NCBI GenBank assembly: GCA_964016885.1
Contig: OZ024743.1
Coordinates: 128,278,001 to 128,342,000, forward strand
Length of the DNA stretch: 64,000 nucleotides
Direction of reading: 5' to 3'
Source: Eledone cirrhosa
Taxonomy: Eukaryota
Under the pieces are notes generated by a model. That model had not been told where the DNA came from, did not search any database, and worked only from the letters and a program-made list of their open reading frames with translations. Shown in pieces: positions 14,393-64,000 of this stretch. Numbering within the stretch: the first letter of the stretch is position 1; every line of letters starts with the position of its first letter. A program made the translations under genes and the position numbers.

Positions 14393-14457
14393 TATACATA
14401 TACTTATATATATATAATATATATATATATCCTCATCATTACCTTCATATATATATA

Positions 14458-15731
14458 CAAGGTTTGTCAGAAAAGTTCCAGGACTGATGTCACAAAAGAT
14501 TTATTTCAAACCCAAACTTCACACTAAGAGTTTTCTCCTTCAAAGTAATCCCCATGGAGTATGTAACTGTAATCTTAGCTCTCTGCAGCAGTCAAACTTT
14601 TTTCCTCATAATTTTATATACATGTCCTCTGTTTCAGATCGCCAAGCAATGAGCACAGAGCAACGAACAAACTTGAAGCTTCTGGTACGGCTGGGGAAAA
14701 CTCTGCTGCAGCAAGTGTATGGAGATGAGACGATGTCACGCTCACGTGTTTTTGAGTGGTGCAAGAGGTTTAAAGAAGGACACGAGGACGTGGAAGATGA
14801 CCCCAGGAGCGGAAGACCCTCAACAACCAGGACTGAGGTGAACGTTGAGCGCGTCAGGCAGATGGTGCGTAGCGATCATCAGCTGACTGTTCGACTGATG
14901 GCAAATGAGCTGGGCATGAATTTGGACAGCGTCTGGAAGATTCTCACTGAAGATTTGCGCGAAGATGGTGCCAAAACTGTTGAATGATGACCAGAAGGGT
15001 CGACGCATGCAAGTGTACCAGGACATCCTCGAACGTCTTGAAACCGAACCAGACTTGCTAGGGACAGTCATCACCGGTGATGAGTCATGGATCATCAAGT
15101 ACGACCCGGAAACCAAACGCCAGAGCCTTCAGTGGAAGAGTCTGTCGTCGTCAAGGCCGAAGAAAGCACGACAGTCGAAGTCCAAAGTCAAGTTCATGTT
15201 GATCACATTCTTCGATGTGAGGGGGATCGTCCACTGCGAGTTCTTGCCACAGGGCCAGACGATCAACCAATATGTCTACAAAGAGATACTGCAGCGTTTG
15301 CTTTGTTCAGTGCGTGAGAAGAGGCGAGAGTTGTGGCAGGACAACTTGTGGCTGCTTCACCATGACAACACGCCTGCTCACAATGCCCTGAACATCCAAC
15401 AGTTCCTGGCCGAGAACATCGCCGTGTTGGAGCAACCGCCCTACTCCCCCGACCTGGCTCTGTGTGATTTTTACCTATTCCCCAAGCTCAAGGGGTCATC
15501 AAGGGGACCCGTTTTGAAGACGTGGACGACATCAAAAAGGCCTAGACGACGGAATTGCGGAGGATCCCGGAAGAATCCTTCCAGAAGTGCATGCAAGTAT
15601 GGCAGAAAAGGATGGAAAAGTGCATTAGACTCCAGGGTGATTACTTTGAAGGAGAAAACTCTTAGTGTGAAGTTTGGGTTTGAAATAAATCTTTTGTGAC
15701 ATCAATCCTGGAACTTTTCTGACACACCTCG
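14458..15731 (+). mobile_element. Full-length mariner transposon with ~103-bp TIRs and TA target duplication
   Basis: TIRs at 14458-14560 and 15629-15731, with TA on both sides. Confidence 0.92.
14649..15665 (+). pseudogene. Frameshifted mariner transposase
   Basis: HTH region EQRTNLKLLVRLGK..YGDETMSRSRVFEW..RFKEG..DDPRSGRP, then MVPKLL, TGDESW, HHDNTPAH, PYSPDLALCD and GDYFEG. Frameshifts at ~14960 and ~15495. The last two Asp are 33 residues apart, probably one codon lost from DD34D. Confidence 0.9.
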
Positions 15732-16602: not shown

Positions 16603-18889
16603 GCTATATGGCGGTGTCATATCCAAAGACTGGTGCAGCAGTATTCTCATAAATTGCTGTGGAGAGGAGCATTTACAGGAAGGTGTGGAGAAGAAAGGTC
16701 TGGAAGCTAAAAGACCTTTCACTAAAATACAAATTTAGGAAAGCCCTTCAAAATGTATATGACGAAAAAGAAGACGATTTAGAGACTATGACATAGATAA
16801 TAACTGGAATTTCTTACGTGACAACTTGCTGCAGGCTACTGATGAAATTTGTGGCTGGAGCAGAGCTCCAACCAGACAGAGAGTGACCTGGTGGTGGAAC
16901 AGCACAGTAGATAAGGCCATTAGAGACAAAATACTAGCATGGAAGGCTTGGAAAAAGGGTGGGAGTAGGGAAGAATATACAGCCACTAAGAGAGAAGCTA
17001 GACGTCAGGTGTACTTAGCACGCAGGGAGGCGGGGAGTAGGAGTTGCCAATGTTCTGCGACGGGAAGATCAGAGGTGTGCGGTGTTCCACATTGCAAGGT
17101 AGTGTGTCAATGCAAATCAGGATGCTGTTGGAGATAAATGTGTCCGGGATGATGCCGGTGTACTTAGTGTCATGAATGATCAGAAAAAAGAGGCCTGGAA
17201 ATGTCATTATGAGAGACTCATGAATCTGGAGAAAGAATGGGAGAGAGAGAAATTACCCTTAGTAGATCCGACAGAGGGACCAGCTATTGAGATTGATGAA
17301 TATAGGGTCCAAGAGGCGATTAAGGGAATGAAAAATGGTAAAGCTGCTGGACCATCGGGAATAGTTGCTGAGATGCTGAAGACATCAGGGGATGTAGGCA
17401 CTAAACTGGATGCACGCATCATCAATCAGGCTATATATGGTGGTGTCATACCCAAAGACTGGTGCAGCAGTATTCTTATAAATTGCTACAAAGGTAAAGG
17501 GGATGCTCTGGAGAGGAGCATTTATAGGGGTATAAAACTGATGGATCAGGTTATGAAAGTGGCAATAAAGATATTAGCGCAACTAATTAGAGAAGGGGTC
17601 AAACTAGATGAGATGCAGTTTGGTTTTGTGCCTGAGAAAAGTACAACAGATGCCCTCTTCTTAGTGAGGCAACTACATGAGAGATTCTTAGAGAAGAATA
17701 AGCTACCATACTTAGCTTTTGTTGACCTAGAGAAGGCCTTTGATAGGGTACCTCGATCTGTCATCTGGTGGTCCCTAAGGAAACTAGGTGTTGAGGAATG
17801 GCTTGTGAGGACAGTGCAAGCTTTGTACAGAGGTGCTGTCAGTAAAATGAGAATAGGAATGGAGTTTAGTGAGGAATTCCACATAAAATAGGAGTACATC
17901 AGGGTTCAGTCCTCAGCCCGCTCTTGTTCATTATAGTCCTCCAAACCATAACAGAGGAGTTTAAGACTGGCTGTCCATGACAAAAGTGTTGATGAGTAGA
18001 AGACAAAAGAGAAAAGTGTTGATGAGTAGAAAAGAGGACAAAACTCTGATTCCGTCAAGGAAATGGCCATGTTCGATATGCAGAAAAGGAACTGGCATAA
18101 ATTCTATAAAATGTACACAATGAAGATCTTGGGTACATAAGAGATGTAGTGGGATAGCAGGCAAACTAACAGGTAGGGAAAACTATGTATGCAGTAGATG
18201 TACAGGGAAAGTTGGCAGTAGTAATCACAGTGATAGACACATTTTTCCAATGCAGGTGGGTTCTACAGAAGTGGTTGATAGCTTCTGGTTACTAGGTGAT
18301 CAGATTAGCATGGGAGGGGGTGTTCCGATACCATAGTATCTAGAATAAGGATGGGTTGCAAGAAGTTTAGGGAGCTGCTTCCTTTGCTGATGAAGAAGGG
18401 TTTCTCCCTGCATACGAAAGGCCAGTTATATAATGCCTGTGTGAGGTGCGCGATGCTGCATGGTAGTGAGACATGGGCAGCAACTGCAGAGCTTATGCAA
18501 TGGCTGTTGAGAAATAAGGTGCGCATGCTCCGTTGGAGGTGCAATGTCAATGTGTGTGAATGACCGAGCATGGATGTGTTGAGAAAGAAACTGGGTATAA
18601 GAGGGATAAGTTGTAGTGTGCGGGAGAGAAGACTGCAATGGTATGGACATGTGATGCACATGGAGGATGACCGCTGGGTAAAGAAGTGCCAAGAAATCCC
18701 AGTAGAAGGAAGACATACTAGAGGAAGACCACGAAACACATGGGCGGAGGTGGTGAGAGCAGACCTCAGATTGCTGAAACTCACGGTGGAGATGACGAAG
18801 GACCGTGACAAGTGGAGAGATGGTGTGCTGAATAAGACCAGTCCCACCCTTGCAAGCAGGGAAAAGCGGACGCAAAATGATGATGATGA
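16603..18889 (+). mobile_element. RTE-clade LINE, 5'-truncated and decayed
   Basis: ORF 17172-17891 has KAAGPSGI, YKGKGD, YRGIKL, QFGF and FVDLEKAFD. The C-terminus has WYGHV..GRPR.TW, followed by a (GAT)n tail. Flanked by a direct repeat tatcatcattaccttcatatata. An internal deletion removes the YADD region. Confidence 0.92.
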
Positions 18890-19329: not shown

Positions 19330-19829
19330 TTTTGACCATATTGATTCAAAACAAATTTTTCCTCCAAATTGAAACCAGTATAATATTTACCTCCAAAGTA
19401 AAACTGTTATAATATTCACCTCCAAAGTAAAACTGTTATAATATTTACCTCCAAAGTAAAACTGTTATAATATTCACCTCCAAAGTAAAACTGTTATAAT
19501 ATTTACCTCCAAAGTAAAACTGTTATGATATTCACCTCCAAAGTAAAACTGTTATAATATTCACCTCCAAAGTAAAACTGTTATAATATTTACCTCCAAA
19601 GTAAAACTGTTATAATATTCATCTCCAAAGTAAAACTGTTATAATATCACCTCCAAAGTAAAACTGTTATAATATTCACCTCCAAAACGAAAATATTTTA
19701 GCATCTCATTTGAAGTTGGTGAAAATAAGTAAAATATTCACCCCAAATATAAGCTGACCCTCCCTTTCCCATTTTACCATCGATTTATTATTGTCACATA
19801 TTTCTCAGCTTATATATGAGTATATACAG
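19330..19829 (-). mobile_element. pogo/Tigger-like MITE remnant carrying an expanded minisatellite
   Basis: Ends 'cttatatatgagtatatacag|ta', the reverse complement of the start of the 57201 element. Confidence 0.6.
19359..19686. repeat. 29-bp minisatellite, ~11 copies
   Basis: Unit ataatatt(c/t)acctccaaagtaaaactgtt, head to tail with no spacers. Confidence 0.95.
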
Positions 19830-20198: not shown

Positions 20199-20284
<86 letters not shown>

Positions 20285-20318
20285 AGATTTGAATGGATAC
20301 AGTTTAGTTGAAAGGAAT

Positions 20319-20435
20319 TTATTGACACGTGTTTCTATAACAGTTACATAACCTAAAACAGCTATCTACAAACTTTTAGTTATGCAGACATTCAATATTT
20401 CAATGTTATTATTTACTGTCATTTCATCAGAATAA
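20319..20435 (-). ncRNA. Type I hammerhead with 88-nt branched helix II
   Basis: TTATT CTGATGA a ATGACAGT[...]ACTGTTAT a GAAAC-ACGT-GTC AATAA. Confidence 0.72.
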
Positions 20436-21025
20436 TATTACTGAGGACCTATTTAGTTTTTATAGAGAATATTAGGAGGAAGGGGTGAAGTTGTTAGAAG
20501 AATAGTTGAAGGAGTGGTTTTTCGATAGCAGTGAGAATTCTTGGTGGCAGTGATTAATTAGATTCCCATCTGTTGTTTTGACATTTTTTATAGAATATAT
20601 TATTGGTTATTTTTCTAAATCTATAGAAGGATTAGAGATAGTAAAGATATGCGTGGTTGGTTTTGTGTTTGCACTTAACATTCAGACTTCAATTTTTCTT
20701 TCAAGTGTACGTATTCTTTCACCCACGCATTCACACACAAATATATTTGCACACCTCTACAAAATACATATACTCACAATTCACATATTCATACTTACAT
20801 ATATATACACATGCATACACATATATATACACACATGTATTCATGTACATACATACGCGCTCATGTGTATACATTTTCATACTCAACTTATCTTTATATA
20901 TACACACGTATAGACACACACATATATACATACATACTCTAGTCCATGTGTACACACATACACATACATACACATCCATATACACATACATACATACACA
21001 TATATATATACATATATACATATAC

Positions 21026-21058
<33 letters not shown>

Positions 21059-21065
21059 CACATAC

Positions 21066-21114
<49 letters not shown>

Positions 21115-21383
21115 AGCACTTTAATACATGAATACACTTACATCTAACTATACACATCAAACATATATATATATTTACTTATTTATATACATTTTCACAT
21201 ATATATACATACTTATGGACGTTTTTAGACACATTCATTATCGCATATTTGTACCTATTCCCATCAGCATATCTTTTCATTATTAGTATGGTAATTTAAG
21301 GTTATTAATATATGTTGAAAAGAGATTGTTTTTATATTTTTCTAACTAGATTAAGGTTTATATAGTTGGGGGATGTCCCTCTT

Positions 21384-22680
21384 TTATGTAATATTCGGCT
21401 TGTAGTGGGAAAAAAGGGTTTTAGTTCTGTGACGGCAGAATAATGTTCGTTCAATTCTGTTATTCAGCAGTTTCTTCTTGTGTGTGATTATGTAATAAAT
21501 CTCAAGATTACACAATTTGCAGAAATTTTGGCTCCTGGAAAAGCTTTGGGTTTTAGCTAATTTTTCCCATTTTAGGGTAAACTTTTGATTGCTATCCCTG
21601 AGCGTCCAAGCTTTCTCTGCTAAAGTTGTTACATTTCTTTGGCTCTGGTGTTTTATTGAGTAAGAATGCCTATACAATCGAGATTTAAACGATGTTGCCG
21701 TTGATCCCACGTAATACCACTCGTTGCCTCCGGATTTAATGGTACACTTATAAATAATATTTTTTTCCAGGCAGTTATTGCCGAGGGGGCAGTTGTCAGG
21801 ATAGGTGCAGTTACAGTTGTGTACGTTGGGTTTTCTCTGGAGTAGTATTGCGGACGAACTTAGGTGTGGTTTATTTATGTTCTGTAGTGTATTGTCTACT
21901 GTTTTTTGGGGGTTCTTTGTACTTAAGTTCTTAGTGTTTTCGTTTAACCTTCTAGTATTGATCTTTTTTATGTGTTGTTCAAGGTTTAACGCTGTAGAGT
22001 ATGACAGTCTTATAGTGGTAGGGTTTAGGATTTTGTGGTATTTGTGTGATGTGGGAAAATGTCTTTTAATTATTTTAAAGAAGAGTACTGGTAAATTTGT
22101 ACTAATGGAGCTATTGTATTCGGGGTTATACCATAAGTACTCTTTGCATCGCTTTCTATTAGTTTTGTTTGTTGGTTTACTGGTGTGCATACTATGGTAG
22201 TAAGTGTGGTTTGGTGTTGTGTTATTATATCTACCTATGTGGGATTTATTTTGGGTGTTTTGATTGTTCCCATCTATGTACTCTATTTTGTTGAGGTAGC
22301 CTGCTTTACTAAGGGCGTTATCGTAGTACTCGGCGTGTTCCTTAAATACTTGTATGTTAGAAGATAGACCTGAGATTCTAAGGGAAATATTTTTAGGGAT
22401 AGATTTAATTATAGAGATGGGGTGGTTAGACCCAACATTTACGTATTTGAGATTTTCATTCAATTTATGAAACGGTTTAATCAAACCAGAGTTTAAATTG
22501 AGTGTGACATCCAGGAAGTTAACTACTTTAAGGTTGTATTCATATGTTATAGTTAGTCCTATTTCGAGTAGTAGTTTTCTTATATCTTTGCGTAGTTTTT
22601 CTAGTTTTTGGTTATTAAGGTTTTTAGCTAGGAGGAGAACATCGTCGCGGTATATTCCGCCGTGGAGATTGCTGAATTTT
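21384..22680 (-). CDS. PLE polyprotein C-terminal part: RT (YRDD) and thumb, Asn-rich linker, CxC-x5-C knuckle, GIY-YIG endonuclease
   Basis: GGIYRDD; VNFLDVTLNL; YVNVGSNHP; WYNPEY; NCNCTYPDNCPLGNNCL; IIYKC..YYVGST..FKSRLYRH; CKLCNLE; LLNNRIE..CRH. Open with no stops over ~430 codons. Confidence 0.88.
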
Positions 22681-22841
22681 ATATATATATACACATATAC
22701 ACACACATGGTAGACATAGATGCAATTCAATTCAATTCAAGCATTGGACATCATATTACTTCTTCAAAATAAGCATGACGGAAAATAATTAGAATGAAGA
22801 AAATGCGAAGGTGTACATGTTAGAGTCCTTTATTAATAAGG

Positions 22842-22938
22842 CTGTGATACATATTTCAATGATGATCATGGTCAATTGATTATAATCCCGATATTGGTTA
22901 AGTAATTACTTAACCAATATCGTGATTTCATCAGACAG
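22842..22938 (-). ncRNA. Type I hammerhead with 70-nt helix II containing a perfect 34-bp palindrome
   Basis: CTGT CTGATGA aat..att GAAAT-ATGT-ATC ACAG; palindrome at 22889-22922. Confidence 0.6.
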
Positions 22939-25339: not shown

Positions 25340-25575
25340 TATTAATTCAAAATATTAACAAATATAGACATTCTTGTGATCAAGTATATTTTATTATACA
25401 TATTTCAGAGGTACTGAGCTATCTTCAACAGTACGTCCTCATCAGATAAAATAAGATGATGCATGACATACCTTGACTAAGTAGATGGTTAAAATTCAGT
25501 CATGGCATTAATATATATAATAAAATATACTTGATCACACGAATGTCTATATTTGTTAATATTTTGAATTAATAT
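25340..25575 (-). mobile_element. PLE terminal remnant with inverted duplication
   Basis: 25340-25398 is inverted relative to ~25515-25575 and encloses an HHR. Confidence 0.6.
25388..25452 (-). ncRNA. Type I hammerhead ribozyme motif
   Basis: ATTTTAT CTGATGA ggac GTACTG-ttgaagatagct-CAGTAC ctct GAAAT-ATGT-ATA ATAAAAT. Confidence 0.65.
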
Positions 25576-29974: not shown

Positions 29975-32411
29975 TTACTAGTTAGGCAGCGGGACAGGCA
30001 GATAGTGTCTAATACCAAGGCATACCCTGGGGAAGAATGTACCCCAGAGCATAGGTTAGTCGTTAGTGATATCTCAGTAAGCAAGAGATGGAATGAGACA
30101 TATAGGAAGGTGTGGAGAAGAAAGGTCTGGAAGCTAAAAGACCTTTCACTAAAATACAAATTTAGGAAAGCCCTTCAAAATGTATATGACGAAAAAGAAG
30201 ACGAGTGACATAGATAATAACTGGAATTTCTTACGTGACAACTTGCTGCAGGCTACTGATGAAATTTGTGGCTGGAGCAGAGCTCCAACCAGACAGAGAG
30301 TGACCTGGTGGTGGAACAGCACAGTAGATAAGGCCATTAGAGACAAAATACTAGCATGGAAGGCTTGGAAAAAGGGTGGGAGTAGGGAAGAATATACAGC
30401 CACTAAGAGAGAAGCTAGACGTCAGGTGTACTTAGCACGCAGGGAGGCGGAGAGTAGGAGTTGCCAATGTTCTGCGACGGGAAGATCAGAGGTGTGCGGT
30501 GTTCCACATTGCAAGGTAGTGTGTCAATGCAAATCAGGATGCTGTTGGAGATAAATGTGTCCGGGATGATGCCGGTGTACTTAGTGTCATGAATGATCAG
30601 AAAAAAGAGGCCTGGAAATGTCATTATGAGAGACTCATGAATCTGGAGAAAGAATGGGAGAGAGAGAAATTACCCTTAGTAGATCCAACAGAGGGACCAG
30701 CTATTGAGATTGATGAATATAGGGTCCAAGAGGCGATTAAGGAAATGAAAAATGGTAAAGCTGCTGGACCATCGGGAATAGTTGCTGAGATGCTGAAGAC
30801 ATCAGGGGATGTAGGCACTAAACTGGTTGCACGCATCATCAATCAGGCTATATATGGTGGTGTCATACCCAAAGACTGGTGCAGCAGTATTCTTATAAAT
30901 TGCTACAAAGGTAAAGGGGATGCTCTGGAGAGGAGCATTTATAGGGGTATAAAACTGATGGATCAGGTTATGAAAGTGGCAGAAAGGATATTAGCATAAC
31001 TAATTAGAGAAAGGGTCAAACTAGATGAGATGCAGTTTGGTTTTGTGCCTGGGAAGAGTACAACAGATGCCCTCTTCTTGGTGAGACAATTGCAAGAGAG
31101 GTTCTTAGAGAAAAATAAGCCACTATACTTAGCCTTTGTTGACCTAGAGAAGGCCTTTGATAGGATACCCCGATCTGTCATCTGGTGGTCCCTAAGGAAA
31201 CTAGGTGTTGAGGAATGGCTTGTGAGGACAGTGCAAACTTTGTACAGAGGTACTCTCAGTAAAGTCAGGGTAGGAATGGAGTTTAGTGAGGAATTCCAGA
31301 TACAAGTAGGAGTACATCAAGGTTCTGTCCTCAGCCCGCTCTTGTTCATTATAGTCCTCCAAGCCATAACAGAGGAGTTTAAAACTGGCTGTCCATGGGA
31401 ACTTCTCTATGCTGACGATCTGGTTCTTATAGCAGAATCAGTAGAGGAGCTAGAGAATAAATTCTGGCTATGGAAACAGCAGTTGGTAGCAAGAGGACTG
31501 AGAGTTAACCTAGCTAAGACAAAAGTGTTGATGAGTAGAAAAGAGGACAAAACTCTGATTCCGTCAGGGAAATGGCCATGTTCGATATGCAGAAAAGGAA
31601 CTGGCATAAATTCTATAAAATGCACACAATGCAGATCCTGGGTACATAAGAGATGTAGTGGGATAGCAGGCAAACTAACAGGTAGGGAGAAATATGTATG
31701 CAGTAGATGTACAGGGAAATTAGACAGTAGAAGTCGCATTGATAGACACATTTTTCAAATGCAGGAGGGTGCTATAGAAGTGGTGGATAGCTTCCTGTAC
31801 CTAGGAGATCAGATTAGCATGGGAGGAGGGTGTTCCAAGGCCATAGTATCTAGAATAAGGACAGGTCGGAAGAAGTTTAGGGAGCTGCTTCCTCTGATGA
31901 TGAAGAAGGGTTTCTCCCTGCGTATGAAAGGCCGGTTGTATGATGCCTGTGTGAGGAGTGCGATGCTGCATGGTAGTGAGACATGGGCAGCAACTGCAGA
32001 GGATATGCGATGGCTGGAGAGAAATGAGGCAAGCATGCTCCGTTGGATGTGCAATGTCAATGTGCGTGAACGACCCAGCATAAATGTGTTGAGAGAGAAA
32101 CTGTGTCTGAGAGGGATAGAATGTAGTGTACGGGAGAGGAGACTGAAGTGGTATGGACATGTGATGCGCATGGAGGATGACCGATGGGTGAAGAAGTGTC
32201 AGGAAATGCCAGTTGAAGGAAGACGTGGTAGAGGTAGACCACGAAAAACATGGGCGGAGGTGGTGAGAACAGACCTCAGATCATTGAAGCTCACAGTGGA
32301 GATGACGAAGGACCGTGACGAGTGGAGAGATGCTGTGCTGAATAAGACCTGTCCCACCCTTGCAAGCAGGGAAAAGCGGACGTAAAATGATGATGATGAT
32401 GATGATGATGA
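29975..32411 (+). mobile_element. RTE-clade LINE from the end of the APE domain to the (GAT)n tail
   Basis: ..PGEECTPEHRLVVSD, TWWWN, RT domain and 3' tail; frameshift at ~30457 and stop at 30997-30999. Confidence 0.95.
31030..32385 (+). CDS. RTE reverse transcriptase (intact distal part) with PHD-like finger
   Basis: QFGF, FVDLEKAFD, GVHQGSVLSPLLF, LYADDL, GLRVN..KTK, CSIC..CTQC..VHKRC..CSRC, FLYLG, HGSETW, WYGHV, GRGRPRKTW. Confidence 0.9.
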   Translation: MQFGFVPGKSTTDALFLVRQLQERFLEKNKPLYLAFVDLEKAFDRIPRSVIWWSLRKLGVEEWLVRTVQTLYRGTLSKVRVGMEFSEEFQIQVGVHQGSVLSPLLFIIVLQAITEEFKTGCPWELLYADDLVLIAESVEELENKFWLWKQQLVARGLRVNLAKTKVLMSRKEDKTLIPSGKWPCSICRKGTGINSIKCTQCRSWVHKRCSGIAGKLTGREKYVCSRCTGKLDSRSRIDRHIFQMQEGAIEVVDSFLYLGDQISMGGGCSKAIVSRIRTGRKKFRELLPLMMKKGFSLRMKGRLYDACVRSAMLHGSETWAATAEDMRWLERNEASMLRWMCNVNVRERPSINVLREKLCLRGIECSVRERRLKWYGHVMRMEDDRWVKKCQEMPVEGRRGRGRPRKTWAEVVRTDLRSLKLTVEMTKDRDEWRDAVLNKTCPTLASREKRT

Positions 32412-32482
32412 TATATATACTTTTTTGTTATATGTTGATTATGAAGACGGCACATCACTATATAATATACATATCATTTTTT

Positions 32483-32736
32483 TCATTTCATTTTACGTCC
32501 GCTTTTTCCCTGCTTGCAAGGGTGGGATGGGAACTGATGCCGGCTTGATTTCTACAGCTGGATGCCCTTCCTAACACCAACCTTATTTACAGTGAGTGCT
32601 GGGTGCTTTTTTGCCGTGGCACCTCCATGACCACTTTGCAGTAGTATGATATGGACCCCAGTCCCTATCATCTCATTTCTACAGCTGAGTAAACTGGAGC
32701 AATGTGAAATAAAGTGTCTTGCTCAAGGAAACAACA
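32483..32736 (-). mobile_element. SINE family B, 5'-truncated
   Basis: Reverse complement of the SINE B body and tail. Confidence 0.85.
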
Positions 32737-34252
32737 AGTCACCCGGTCTGATATATGGTGGGCTCTTAGAAATCTAGGAGTAGATGAATGGCTTGTGAAA
32801 GCTGTACAAGCCATGTATAGGAGAGCAGTCAGCAAGGTTAGGATTAGCAATGAGCATAGCGAGGAATTTGGCGTACAGGTCGGTGTCCACCAGGGCTCTG
32901 TTTTTAGCCCTCTCCTGTTCATCATAGTCCTGCAGGCAATAACGGAGGAGTTTAAGACTGGATGCCCATGGGAACTCCTGTATGCAGATGACCTCGCACT
33001 TATAGCTGAATCTATGGTAGAACTAGAGAAGAAATTCCAAACTTGGAAGCAGCGACTAGAAAGAAAGGGTCTCAAAGTCAACATGACAAAGACTAAGGTC
33101 CTTGTAAGTAGACGAGAAAAAAGAACCCAGATTCCCTTAGGGAAATGGCCTTGCTCAGTATGTAGGAAAGGTGAAGGTAGGAACTCCATTCTCTGCCCCA
33201 AATGCAAACAATGGGTACACAAGAGATGTAGCGGGATCTCAGGAAGCTTAATTAAGAATATAGGCTTCACATGTAGCAGCTGTGCTGGGACAGCAAGCAG
33301 CAAACAGCCACAGGAAACAAGTACCACCAATCTCTGGGAGGGCTCTGTAGAAACAGTAGACAGCTTTTGCTACCTAGGTGATCGAATTAGCAGCGGAGGT
33401 GGGTGTTCAGAAAGTACAATAACTAGAGTAAGAACGGGATGGAAGAAGTTCAGGGAACTACTGCCACTGCTAGCTGCAAAAGGCTTCTCCCTCAAAATGA
33501 AAGGCAGACTGTATGATGCGTGTATCTGAACAGCAATGTTACACGGTAGTGAGACCTGGGTGCTGAAGGTGGAAGACTTACGTAGTTTAGAAAGAAACGA
33601 AGCCTGCATGCTCCGATGGATGTGTAATAGTAATATACGCGAACGGCAAAGCATAAATGAATTGAGAGAGAGACTGAGCATCAGAGGAATCAAATGCTGT
33701 GTGCAGGAGAGGCGGATGCGTTGCTATGGACATGTGATGCGTATGAAGGATGACAGCTGCATAAAAAGGTGCAGAGCACTAGAAGTCAATGGAGGCCGCA
33801 GAGTGGAGAGACCCAAGAAGACCTGGGATGAGGTGATAGGGGCCGACCTTACCCAGTTGCACCTCTCAAAGGCGATGACACACGACCGTGATCTCTGGCG
33901 TCACACATTAATACAGAGTACCCGACCTCCCAAGGGTACAAGCTGAAGCATATAGACAATATGTCCCCACACCCTCCCACTGCAAAGTGGTCGTGGAGGT
34001 GCCACGGCAAAAAAGCACCCAGCCCACACTGTAAAGTGGTCGTGTAGGCGCCACGGAAAATAGCACCCAGCACTCACTGTAAATGAGGTTGGTGTTAGGA
34101 AGGGCATCCAGCTGTAGAAATCAAGCCAAAATCAGTTCCTGTATGAGCAAGGCATGGTCAGCCGACCAGACACTGCCCACAACAGGACAACCCGTCTAAC
34201 CCATGCTAGCATGGAAGAACGGACGTAAAACGGTGATGATGATGATGATGAT
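32737..34252 (+). mobile_element. RTE LINE, second family, with long 3' UTR
   Basis: GVHQGSVFSPLLF, LYADDL, PHD-like finger, stop at 33527-33529. The 3' UTR ends AACCCATGCTAGCATGG..GGACGTAAAACG(GAT)n. Confidence 0.92.
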
Positions 34253-44431: not shown

Positions 44432-44585
44432 AAAAAAAAATATATATATATATATATACCAGGATATGACCAGGATTTTTTCATTCTGAGGATTAAAAGC
44501 AAAATCTTTTGCTTTTAAGAAACCACTGGTAAATGGAATAATTGCCTTATGTTGTTTATTACATAAATGTATATATATATATATA

Positions 44586-61109: not shown

Positions 61110-64000
61110 ATACTATTGCTGGCGATCTAAACGGCCACGTTGGACAACATAGTGATGGCTATGATAGAATCCATGGAGGCTATGGGGTTTGAAATAGAAA
61201 TGAGGAAGGCTTCAGAATCCTGAAATTCTGTGACGCCAATAACCTAACTATCTGTAACACAAACTTCAAAAAATGTGAAAACCACTTGATCACCTATAGA
61301 TTAGGGGAACACGCCAGCCAGATAAATTATATCCTTACTAGAAGACGGGACAAAGTGTCTGTTGTAAACACTAAATCCCTCCCCCATGAAGAATGCACCT
61401 CCCAACATAGCCTAGTAGTTAGTGACCTCACAGTCAGGAATAGATGTACTCGACGACAGAGGAGGCCTACCTTCAGGAGAAGAATATGGAAGTTGAAGGA
61501 CCCCATAGCCAGTGACAAATTTAAAAGTTTATTACTTGATGCCTTTGACAATAAGGAAGAGCAATTAGAGATGTGCGATATAGAGGAACAGTGGCAATTC
61601 TTGAAAGTGAACCTGCTGAAAGCAACGGATGAAATCTGTGGCTGGAGCAGACCTATTGGCAGGAGGAGAGTAACTTGGTGGTGGAACAGTAAGGTAGAAG
61701 AGACAATCAAGGCCAAAAAGCAGGCTTGGAAAGTATGGCAGGATGGGGGAAGTAGAGAGCACTATCAAGTGACCAGGAGAAAAGCTAGGAGACAAGTGTA
61801 CCTTGCAAAAAGGGAAGCAGAGGAAAGAAAGTTCAAGCATGTTCTACAACGTGAGGACCAAAAACGTGAGGTGTTCAGGATTGCTAGACAATGTGTCAAG
61901 GAAAACCGTGATATTGTCGGGGAGAAGTGGGTCCATAATGATAACGCTGTACTTGCTCTCACTGATGCTGATAAGAAGATATCCTGGAAGTGTCACTACG
62001 AGAGACTATTAAATGAGGAGAATAAGTGGGAAAAAGATAGTCTGCCCCAAATCGATCCAATAGAAGGATCAGCGGTGCAAGTTAAAGGTAGTATAATAAG
62101 TAAGGCAATCAAAGATATGAAGACAGGTAAGGCAGCTGGGCCTTCGGAGATAGTTGCTGAGATGTTGAAGGCATCTGGAATGGTGGGACATACTATGGTC
62201 ACCCATATAGTTAACCAAGTAATACAGAATGGGGTCATACCAAAAGACTGTCGAAGCAGCATCACCATTACTACTACAAGGGTAAAGGAGATGCTCTAGA
62301 TAGAGGAAACTATAGAGGCATTAAGTTAGTTGACTAGGTCATGAAGGTCACAGAAAGAGTTATAGCACAACTAATCAGAGAGCGGATTGATCTAGATGAA
62401 ATGCAGTTTGGATTTGTGTCAGGTAAAAGTACCACAGACGCTCTTTTCCTTGTACGACAACTACAAGAAAAGTAACTAGCTAAAAGTAAACCCCCTCTAC
62501 TTAGCTTTTGTAGACCTAAAAGCCTTTGACAGAGTCCCCCACTTCATTATCTGGTGGGCTCTTAGAAAACTAGGTGTAGATGAATGGCTTGTGAGAGCTA
62601 TACAAGCTATGTATAATGAAACAGTCAGCAAGGTTAGAATTAACAATGAATATTGTGAAGAATTTAGTGTAAAAGTTGGTGTTCACCAAGGCTCTGTCTT
62701 TAGCCCCCTTCTATTTATTATTGCCCTTCAGGCTATAACAGAGGAGTTCATGACCGGCTGCCCATGGGAACTCCTATACGCAGATGATCTAATGCTCATA
62801 GCTGAATCAATGGCTGAACTAGAAAAGAAATGCCAAACATGGAAGCATGGCCTAGAATCAAAAGGCCTTAAAGTTAACTTGTCTAAGACTAAAGTCCTAG
62901 TTTGTAGAAAGGAAAATAAGGCACAGGTACCCTCAGGGAAATGGTCTTGCTCAGTATGTCCCAAATGCAAACTATGGGTACATAAAAGATGTAGTGGGAT
63001 CACAGATAAACTATCTAAGAACGTAGACTTTATATGTGGCCGATGCTCAGATGCAATAGGTAGCAAGTGTCCACAGGATACTAGCCCCTTCTATTGCCCA
63101 GATGGTTCTATAGAAATAGTAGACACTTTCCGTTATCTGGGTGACAAAATCAGCAGTGGTGGAGGGCGTTCTGAAAGTACAGTTGCCAGAGTCAGAACGG
63201 GATGGAAAAAGTTCAGAGAGCTTATACCGCTGTTGGCCACAAAAGGTTTCTCTCTAAAAATGAAAGGCAGATTGTATGATGCTTGTATAGGAACAGCAAT
63301 ACTACATGGCAGTGAGACATGGGCACTGCGTGCAGAGGAGCTGCGTAGACTGGAAAGGAACGAAGCATGCATGCTCTGTTGGATGTGTAATAGTAACATA
63401 CGTGAACGGCAAAGCATAAATGAACTAAGTGAGAAATTAGGAATAAGAGGGATCAGATGCTGTTTACTCGAGAGTATGGCCACGTGATGCGCATGAAAGA
63501 CGACAGCTGTATAAAAAAGTGCAGGGCGATCAAAATTGATGGTAGTTACGGAGTAGGTAGACCCAGAAAAACCTGAGACAATCTGATAAATTCCGACCTT
63601 ACACACTTGCACCTCTCTAAGACAATGTCACTGGACCGAGATCTTTGGCGCTACGCAGTAATACAGAAGACCCGCCTTGCCTATGTACAAAGCGAAACCT
63701 ACAGTCAGTAGGCACTTCTTAACCAAATATACACCCCAACCCACTACCCCTACCCTATCCTCCCATCAACATCACCCTCTCTTTATAAAGTTGGTACCAC
63801 AACATCCAGTCCAAATAAAGGAGATAATGAGATCGAGATCGAGATCGTGTAGATGTCACGAGAAAAAACACACAGTCCACACTGTAATGTGGCCATGTAG
63901 GTAACACGGTAAAAAGTTCCCAGTTCCACACTGTAAATGTGGTTGGTGTTAGGAAGGGCATCCAGCCATAGAAAACCTGCCAGATAGTCCTATATGAGCG
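61110..64000 (+). mobile_element. RTE LINE (third family): APE + RT + PHD-like finger + 3' UTR; multiple stops and frameshifts; runs off the window end
   Basis: IAGDLNGHVG, NEEG.RIL.FC, SQINYIL, TWWWN, QFGF, GVHQGSVFSPLLF, LYADDL, HGSETW. Confidence 0.93.

What the first reader, a model, noticed from the sequence alone, without database searches (positions are those of the whole stretch)
20319..20435. Best-preserved long-helix-II hammerhead, attached to an ORF-intact Naiad-type PLE
The core is perfect (CUGAUGA/GAAAC-ACGU-GUC) with 5-bp helix I and an 8-bp basal helix II (AUGACAGU/ACUGUUAU, offset by an A-A pair). Above it are two sub-hairpins (ACAUU/AAUGU and UGCAUAAC-UAAAA/UUUUA-g-GUUAUGUA), forming a multiway junction. 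It is sense to, and ~950 nt downstream of, an uninterrupted RT/GIY-YIG ORF, so the copy is probably young and close to the functional state.
Basis: partly seen in the sequence, partly recalled or inferred. Interest (0 to 1): 0.75.

Follow-up and report, generated by a model that had tools for sequence, protein, structure and literature searches.

The report
Long-armed hammerhead in young Penelope retrotransposon
This is a hammerhead motif, predicted to be a self-cutting RNA, with an unusually long 88-base side arm at the end of a broken copy of a very young, abundant Penelope-like jumping gene, and the layout of the family's copies suggests the element is likely copied from an RNA circle that the ribozyme would help to make.

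Summary
The motif is real: a type I hammerhead on the minus strand (core 20430-20424, 88-nt helix II, predicted cut after 20324). It belongs to the element upstream, a family with over 3,100 near-identical ends in this 3-Gb genome. (1) The element is not a Naiad: RT precedes the endonuclease and all seven published Hydra-clade protein motifs are met. (2) This copy's ORF is not intact: it lacks the first 342 of 773 residues. Helix III is a 2-bp palindrome, so cutting likely needs a dimer or the element's protein. No sampled copy ends at the cut site; ends lie about 45 or 160 nt beyond it. Repeats within one insertion are identical in 16 of 17 loci (shuffled mean 5), in seamless arrays of up to 2.3 units. 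This fits re-copying of one template, likely a ribozyme-made circle; template jumping is not excluded. Covariation support for the arm is weak. The scan reported long-armed hammerheads in this genome before; eight paper searches found none.

The parts
20279..22680 (-). Whole insertion: 5'-truncated (2.4 of 3.6 kb), solitary copy of a Hydra-clade Penelope-like element, inserted in (TA)n
   Evidence: BLAST to full-length units 98.5-99.4%; both junctions in TA repeats
21384..22680 (-). 3' part of the ORF: RT from just before YRDD, thumb, CxCX5C linker, GIY-YIG endonuclease (residues 343-773)
22681..22736 (-). Host flank that happens to stay in frame; not part of the element
   Evidence: homology stops at 22680
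20436..21383 (-). 3' untranslated region, with an internal microsatellite that travels with the element
   Evidence: present in family copies
20431..20435 (-). Helix I, 5' strand (UUAUU)
20424..20430 (-). Hammerhead core CUGAUGA
20336..20423 (-). 88-nt helix II arm: A.A, 8-bp basal stem, then a predicted rod of 5+8+8+4 pairs with internal loops
20324..20335 (-). GAAA, palindromic helix III (ACACGUGU), C17; predicted cut between 20324 and 20323
20319..20323 (-). Helix I, 3' strand (AAUAA)
20279..20323 (-). 45 nt from predicted cut site to the element's short 3' end (inferred start of reverse transcription)
   Evidence: the commonest 3' end of the family
20201..20280 (.). (TA)n target microsatellite

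Best explanation
This is the type I hammerhead motif in the terminal repeat (pLTR) of a very young Hydra-clade Penelope-like retrotransposon, with helix II stretched to an 88-91-nt arm predicted to be an unbranched rod; it likely cuts only as a dimer or with the element's protein, and likely serves to excise and re-join one 3.6-kb unit as a circle that is then reverse transcribed. Steps. Shown: motif, family membership, tandem pLTR-ORF-pLTR layout, 3' ends about 45 or 160 nt past the predicted cut, no ends at the cut, identical repeats within insertions. Predicted: rod fold; weak monomer fold; 8-bp dimer helix III. Inferred: a transcript through a tandem locus carries two hammerheads whose palindromic helices III pair; both cut; the unit circularises; a lone hammerhead in the circle is nearly silent; the RT/endonuclease nicks (TA)n and starts at +45 or +160, runs round the circle for a random length, giving truncated copies such as this one and arrays longer than one unit. 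The long arm is likely a tolerated rod stacked away from the core, possibly a docking site for the element's protein (untested). The window copy itself is likely dead: no 5' pLTR, no partner hammerhead, no RT N-terminus. Odds: identity as a Hydra-clade pLTR hammerhead 0.95; rod 0.85; circle template 0.45.
For: Motif beyond chance. 3,129 exact matches to a 20-mer over the core's 3' half, control 0; hammerhead at the same place in family copies and twice per tandem, 3.6 kb apart, 210 nt before the ATG. Hydra motifs RWK, DKT, CxCX5C, CxxC, CxH, no CCHH. Arm: -24.1 kcal/mol, 0 of 300 shuffles as stable; rod probability 0.99 in 4 of 4 subfamily representatives folded; rod 98.1% of cells paired vs 86.9% for the branched model in 50 distinct copies. 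Monomer helices I and III have probability <0.05 and the active fold costs 5.6 kcal/mol; the palindrome gives an 8-bp duplex, -11.7 kcal/mol; such motifs work as dimers (PMC4209133). Of 63 sampled 3' ends, 44 lie at +38 to +45 and 19 at +155 to +160. 12 of 12 places with a different base just after the site are point mutants that read on. 5' starts at the site: 5 of 16 places, against 16 of 23 at a control site 16 nt upstream. All pLTR copies within an insertion identical in 16 of 17 loci, 7 haplotypes in all; shuffled mean 5.0, maximum 11 in 100,000; arrays of up to 2.3 units with scattered 5' ends. Circle model proposed before (PMC4209133).
Against: No cleavage, circle or RNA was observed. 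In the only reconstituted PLE, ribozyme-dead mutants inserted normally and unprocessed RNA was the template (PMC11167929). Identical repeats also follow from template jumping on a linear RNA, from gene conversion or from assembly polishing (internal microsatellites do differ in 9 of 14 tandem pairs, which argues against simple collapse). No pair of the upper rod has a two-sided change (0 of 24); the basal stem has 2 such pairs in 4 sequences; a sister group of 15 sequences gave no RNAalifold consensus and no covariation above shuffles. The young lineage has A.A at 10.1-11.1, seen in 0 of 26 published Hydra-clade rows (14 have U.U), and an all-A-U helix I. The 141-nt whole motif folds only modestly better than shuffles (15 of 200). 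The 18 long loci were chosen for a full ORF, so arrays over one unit are enriched.
Confidence: 0.5

Rival explanations
1. The ribozyme is real but cuts rarely or late; the template is an uncleaved linear read-through RNA, and repeats within an insertion arise by the RT jumping back onto the same RNA. The arm and core act mainly as a protein-binding or folding element near the RT start sites.
For: PMC11167929: cutting needs the protein, is not needed for insertion in vitro, and no RNA-seq reads end at the site; two RT start sites define the tail, as here (+45, +160). Explains the absence of ends at the cut and the identical repeats equally well.
Against: Needs several exact jumps to give a 2.3-unit arm joined to an inverted 1.56-unit arm with identical pLTRs; does not explain why the catalytic core is kept across families with 40-50% protein identity.
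Confidence: 0.33
2. In the currently amplifying subfamily the ribozyme is decaying or dead and the arm is a neutral expansion carried along with the pLTR.
For: Young copies have lost the 10.1-11.1 pair, two basal pairs and (window type) three rod pairs compared with older subfamilies; no covariation in the upper arm; Naiads spread without canonical hammerheads.
Against: No subfamily-level change in the core, helix I or helix III (one search agrees, but its rows were picked for an intact core); recurrent arm changes mostly fall in loops or make wobble pairs; mismatches at 10.1-11.1 occur in active natural hammerheads (U.U; PMC3088659, PMC7229834) and A.A recurs in other families here.
Confidence: 0.12
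3. One reading: a monomeric ribozyme whose helix II is a multiway junction with two sub-hairpins.
For: Both sub-hairpins can be drawn in the window copy; two recurrent changes keep them as wobble pairs. Other families in this genome do fold as three-way junctions (95-97 nt).
Against: 6.2 kcal/mol worse than the rod, probability <0.001; three of its pairs are broken in 22, 39 and 41 of 50 sequences.
Confidence: 0.05

Closest known systems
Hydra-clade Penelope-like elements and their hammerheads (Craig et al. 2021, PMC8557442; sections 3 and 11, Files S1, S2 and parts of S4/S7 read)
   Same: RT then GIY-YIG; RWK, DKT, CxCX5C, CxxC, CxH; no CCHH; (TA)n targets; 3' type I hammerhead with palindromic helix III (acac-gtgt also in Hydra-1_cRog and Penelope-17_HM); frequent mismatch at the base of helix II; tail at one end of inverted insertions.
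   Different: Helix II is 88-92 nt against 12-26 nt in the 26 Hydra rows of File S2 (hand count); unit is 3.6 kb, not under 3 kb; tail is about 115 nt, not 30-40; basal mismatch is A.A, not U.U. The longest helix II in File S2 is about 54 nt (PLE-X1_sMoe, not Hydra).
Metazoan PLE hammerheads, minimal or with small palindromic helix III (Cervera and de la Pena 2014, PMC4209133; parts 1-2 of 4 read)
   Same: Type I, short helix I, in pLTRs, predicted dimer dependence; circle model proposed there.
   Different: Their 'large' helix II is 6-8 bp with G10.1-C11.1; here about 33 predicted pairs and A.A.
PAc (Poseidon) from Anolis (Frangieh et al. 2024, PMC11167929; passages and second half of main text read)
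   Same: Two RT start sites just downstream of the hammerhead define a tail; no ends at the cut site; AT-rich targets.
   Different: Other clade; its ORF overlaps the ribozyme, here the ATG is 210 nt downstream; no long arm reported.
Naiad PLEs (PMC8557442)
   Same: (TA)n insertion, pLTRs, 3.4-4.4-kb length.
   Different: Naiads have N-terminal EN, CxC, DKA, CCHH and no canonical hammerhead; none of this holds here.
Non-LTR retrozymes (PMC7229834, passages; bioRxiv 2026.07.22.740005, part 1 of 5)
   Same: Type I hammerheads in tandem units, circular RNA intermediates.
   Different: Retrozymes are 170-400-nt non-coding units; this is an autonomous 3.6-kb coding element.

Membership tests
Naiad PLE | GIY-YIG endonuclease N-terminal to RT | tested here: not met
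   YRDD at 352, GIY-YIG at 650-669 of 773
Naiad PLE | DKA motif and CxC linker between EN and RT | tested here: not met
   DKT at 121; no EN ahead of RT
Naiad PLE | No canonical hammerhead | tested here: not met
   full core with three helices
Hydra-clade PLE | Single ORF, RT then C-terminal GIY-YIG | tested here: met
Hydra-clade PLE | RWK motif; DKG changed to DKT | tested here: met
   RWK at 37, DKT at 121
Hydra-clade PLE | CxCX5C linker | tested here: met
   CNCTYPDNC at 631
Hydra-clade PLE | CCHH absent; CxxC and CxH beside the conserved E and N | tested here: met
   one Cys only between IIY and YVG; CKLC at 729, CRH at 757
Hydra-clade PLE | Insertion into (TA)n; hammerhead near 3' end | tested here: met
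Hydra-clade PLE | Generally shorter than 3 kb (a tendency, not a criterion) | tested here: not met
   unit 3,601 nt, owing to a long 3' region
Hydra-clade PLE | Groups with Hydra families in an RT tree | not tested
   no tree built; N-terminus and RT resemble Hydra-1_Obim by eye
Type I hammerhead ribozyme | Core CUGANGA / GAAA / NUH with three helices, helix I open | tested here: met
Type I hammerhead ribozyme | Paired 10.1-11.1 (usually G-C) | tested here: not met
   A.A here, A-U in older subfamilies; natural mismatched variants are known, so this is not disqualifying
Type I hammerhead ribozyme | Rfam hammerhead model match | tested here: not met
   0 matches at gathering score in the window; long arm likely defeats the models
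Type I hammerhead ribozyme | Helix I-helix II tertiary contact | not tested
   no pseudoknot search run
Type I hammerhead ribozyme | Site-specific self-cleavage | not testable with these tools
   bench test

The most novel reading that the evidence does not exclude
Hydra-clade Penelope-like elements replicate through a full-length 3.6-kb RNA circle made by paired hammerheads, with reverse transcription rolling round it, and a lineage of these elements has turned helix II into an 80-100-nt arm that docks the RT next to its start sites; thousands of such ribozymes per genome are invisible to Rfam and to published descriptors.
Probability: 0.25. Interest if true: 0.8.

Novelty: new variant of a known kind. 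Interest (0 to 1): 0.45.

Why it matters
What hammerheads do in Penelope-like elements is an open question (PMC8557442 calls it unclear; PMC11167929 found cutting dispensable in vitro). This family is young enough (0.1-0.5% between copies, 39 of 98 scored copies with the full 785-codon frame) that its insertions record the mechanism: no ends at the cut site and repeats that are re-made identical in each insertion. It offers natural A-U and A.A versions and several arm lengths for direct tests of cleavage, circle formation and arm function. The long arm also shows that standard searches miss at least 7,000 hammerhead-like motifs in this genome. The single window copy is an ordinary truncated insertion.

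Tried and rejected
DNA similarity search of the own genome found nothing, not even the window; patterns and protein were used instead. Rfam: 0 matches. Pfam: 0 families for the truncated and the full ORF. Nematis was my first clade guess; dropped after the Hydra motifs were checked. A subfamily-wide compensatory C-G to U-A change that I first noted was wrong: it is mostly C-G to U-G (20 of 50), U-A in 3. A shared bulged-A motif across families depends on which of two similar segments is aligned; not claimed. Sister-group covariation: no support. A hairpin that masks the core (UCAG/CUGA) is not kept in the oldest subfamilies; dropped. Sequencing runs: no RNA holder listed; only the hammerhead-bearing end of the element was laid on contigs, which cannot show ends or strand. 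The folding script stopped after 4 of 6 subfamily representatives. Lunse et al. 2016 is not held; known only through PMC6765202. No tree, structure prediction or covariance model was made. No look-alike notes by sequence.

Full report
Observation. The minus strand of 20435-20319 reads UUAUU CUGAUGA [88 nt] GAAA C ACGU G U C AAUAA. A descriptor scan of the window found it with helix I 5 bp, basal helix II 8 bp and helix III 2 bp; 0 of 100 locally shuffled windows gave a match that strong. Rfam finds nothing in the window. The predicted cut is between 20324 and 20323.

The element. The 450-codon frame at 21384-22736 begins in host DNA; family homology starts at 22680, residue 343 of a 773-residue protein. 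A protein search of the own genome (3.0 Gb, animal; octopus-like by my recall of its repeats, not tested) returned 98 scored copies at 99-100% identity, 39 of them with the full 785-codon frame (hand count). The ORF, 3' region and hammerhead travel together down to 20279, so the hammerhead belongs to the element. A 20-mer over the core's 3' half has 3,129 exact matches, control 0. In tandem loci the hammerhead occurs every 3.6 kb, 210 nt before the ATG. The window copy differs from its nearest 3 of 29 other copies at 2 of 1,540 positions (range 2-8), has no upstream pLTR or inverted partner (L043) and sits in (TA)n.

Clade. Craig et al. (PMC8557442; passages, sections 3 and 11, supplement parts 1-2 and a search of it) define Naiads by an N-terminal endonuclease and lack of canonical hammerheads. 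This protein has RT first, RWK, DKT, CxCX5C, CxxC, CxH and no CCHH: their Hydra clade. The lead came from an earlier scan note and was checked here; no tree was built. Relatives at 31-43% identity are common in public data (299 hits among 7,996 scored); Pfam recognises nothing.

The arm. Older subfamilies were fetched by pattern (375 matches). On 50 distinct copies chosen for an intact core the upper rod is 98.1% paired, the branched model 86.9%, with three pairs broken in 22, 39 and 41 sequences; RNAalifold also returns the rod. This is weak evidence of selection: 0 of 24 upper pairs show a two-sided change and the shuffles are matched. Recurrent changes mostly fall in loops or make wobbles, one breaks a pair in 5 sequences. 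Taking the more diverged copies as older (inference), the young lineage lost the A-U pair next to the core, two basal pairs and, in the window type, three rod pairs, and gained four at the tip.

Long arms are common here. Cores spaced 45-75 nt apart: 1,872 matches, control 39; 76-106 nt: 5,186, control 33. Several of these families lie beside ORF remains 33-54% identical to this protein (6 of the printed non-family rows). A sister group with 81-83-nt arms can be drawn as a rod (83% paired) but without covariation above shuffles; a 95-97-nt family folds as a three-way junction. Published Hydra-clade helices II are 12-26 nt (26 rows, File S2, hand count), the longest in that file about 54 nt. 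Eight searches found no paper describing 80-100-nt arms; subscription papers, Lunse et al. 2016, the supplementary figures of PMC4209133 and bioRxiv supplements were not seen and may bear on this. The scan itself has at least eight earlier notes on such motifs in this genome.

Catalytic state. With 40-nt flanks helices I and III have probabilities of 0.002 and 0.04, and the active fold costs 5.6 kcal/mol. Helix III is the palindrome ACACGUGU, giving an 8-bp duplex between two copies. PLE hammerheads of this build showed little or no activity as monomers and low activity as dimers (PMC4209133, parts 1-2 of 4; review passages PMC6765202), and the Anolis one cut only with protein (PMC11167929). 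A.A at 10.1-11.1 is absent from the 26 Hydra rows, where 14 have U.U; U.U is the best-tolerated mismatch (PMC3088659 passages).

What the insertions record. Of 95 hammerheads followed downstream, 32 read into the next unit, 44 end at +38 to +45 and 19 at +155 to +160 (some loci overlap, and this set could not show ends at the site). Separate genome-wide patterns did: 12 of 12 places with a different base at +1 or +2 are point mutants; 5 of 16 places start within about 3 nt of the site, against 16 of 23 at a control site 16 nt upstream, which starts with TATA and may attract junctions. So templates spanned the scissile bond. Inverted pairs have one short and one long end in 5 of 5 long loci with both ends in view and 2 of 2 short ones. 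In 18 loci chosen for a full ORF, arms reach 2.3 units with scattered 5' ends. Tandem pLTR pairs are identical in 17 of 17 comparisons, pairs between loci in 231 of 750; per locus 16 of 17, shuffled mean 5.0, maximum 11. Lineage marks therefore appear in both repeats at once, which plain copying of a two-pLTR linear transcript would not give. Internal microsatellites differ in 9 of 14 tandem pairs.

Mechanism. Best: paired hammerheads cut a tandem transcript, the unit circularises, the lone ribozyme in the circle is nearly silent, and RT starts at +45 or +160 and rolls round (model of PMC4209133; odds 0.45). Close rival: uncleaved linear RNA with template jumps, in line with the in vitro data of PMC11167929 (0.33). 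The arm is likely a tolerated rod; a role in docking the protein is a guess. Hammerheads before ORFs can aid translation in some RNA viruses (PMC13725137 passages); nothing here tests that.

Verdict. A real hammerhead of a known kind of element, with an arm length not found in print; new variant of a known kind, interest 0.45.

Noticed in passing
window 20285-20720, run X5: Contigs of X5 (88 M letters, kind not on record) carry clustered A>G (10 places) and T>C (4 places) changes, with 10-22 differences per short contig, mostly absent from X1 (same organism and study codes, other sample) and from the genomic copies aligned. It looks like A-to-I hyper-editing of pLTR RNA on both strands if X5 is RNA; not established.
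   Followed up: partly
window 25395-25445 (-): Second hammerhead motif, 32-nt helix II, helix III AUAUGUAU, helix I 6 bp.
   Followed up: no
window 44486-44531 (+): Third hammerhead motif, CUGAGGA core, 26-nt helix II with A.A or U-A base, helix I 6-7 bp.
   Followed up: no
window about 22865-22935 (-): CUGAUGA followed by a long near-perfect hairpin and a decayed GAAA/AAUU segment, 200 nt upstream of the insertion's 5' junction; the hairpin's centre occurs only here in the genome.
   Followed up: partly
L251-L253, L120; L122, L123: Other long-arm families whose 83-97-nt helix II is predicted to be truly branched, with U.U, A.A or A.C at its base.
   Followed up: partly
L065, L075, L077, L062+L063, L067+L068: Every inverted pair with both ends in view has one end at +45 and one at +160: a 115-nt tail, longer than the 30-40 bp in print.
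   Followed up: partly
window 20720-21140: A mixed TA/TG microsatellite is a fixed part of the element's 3' region and varies in length between and within insertions.
   Followed up: partly
window 14418-15699, 17103-17891, 31000-33529, 62480-63487: Mariner-type transposase pieces and RT pieces, three followed by a PHD finger.
   Followed up: no
window about 19500-19700: Short tandem array of about 30-nt units.
   Followed up: no
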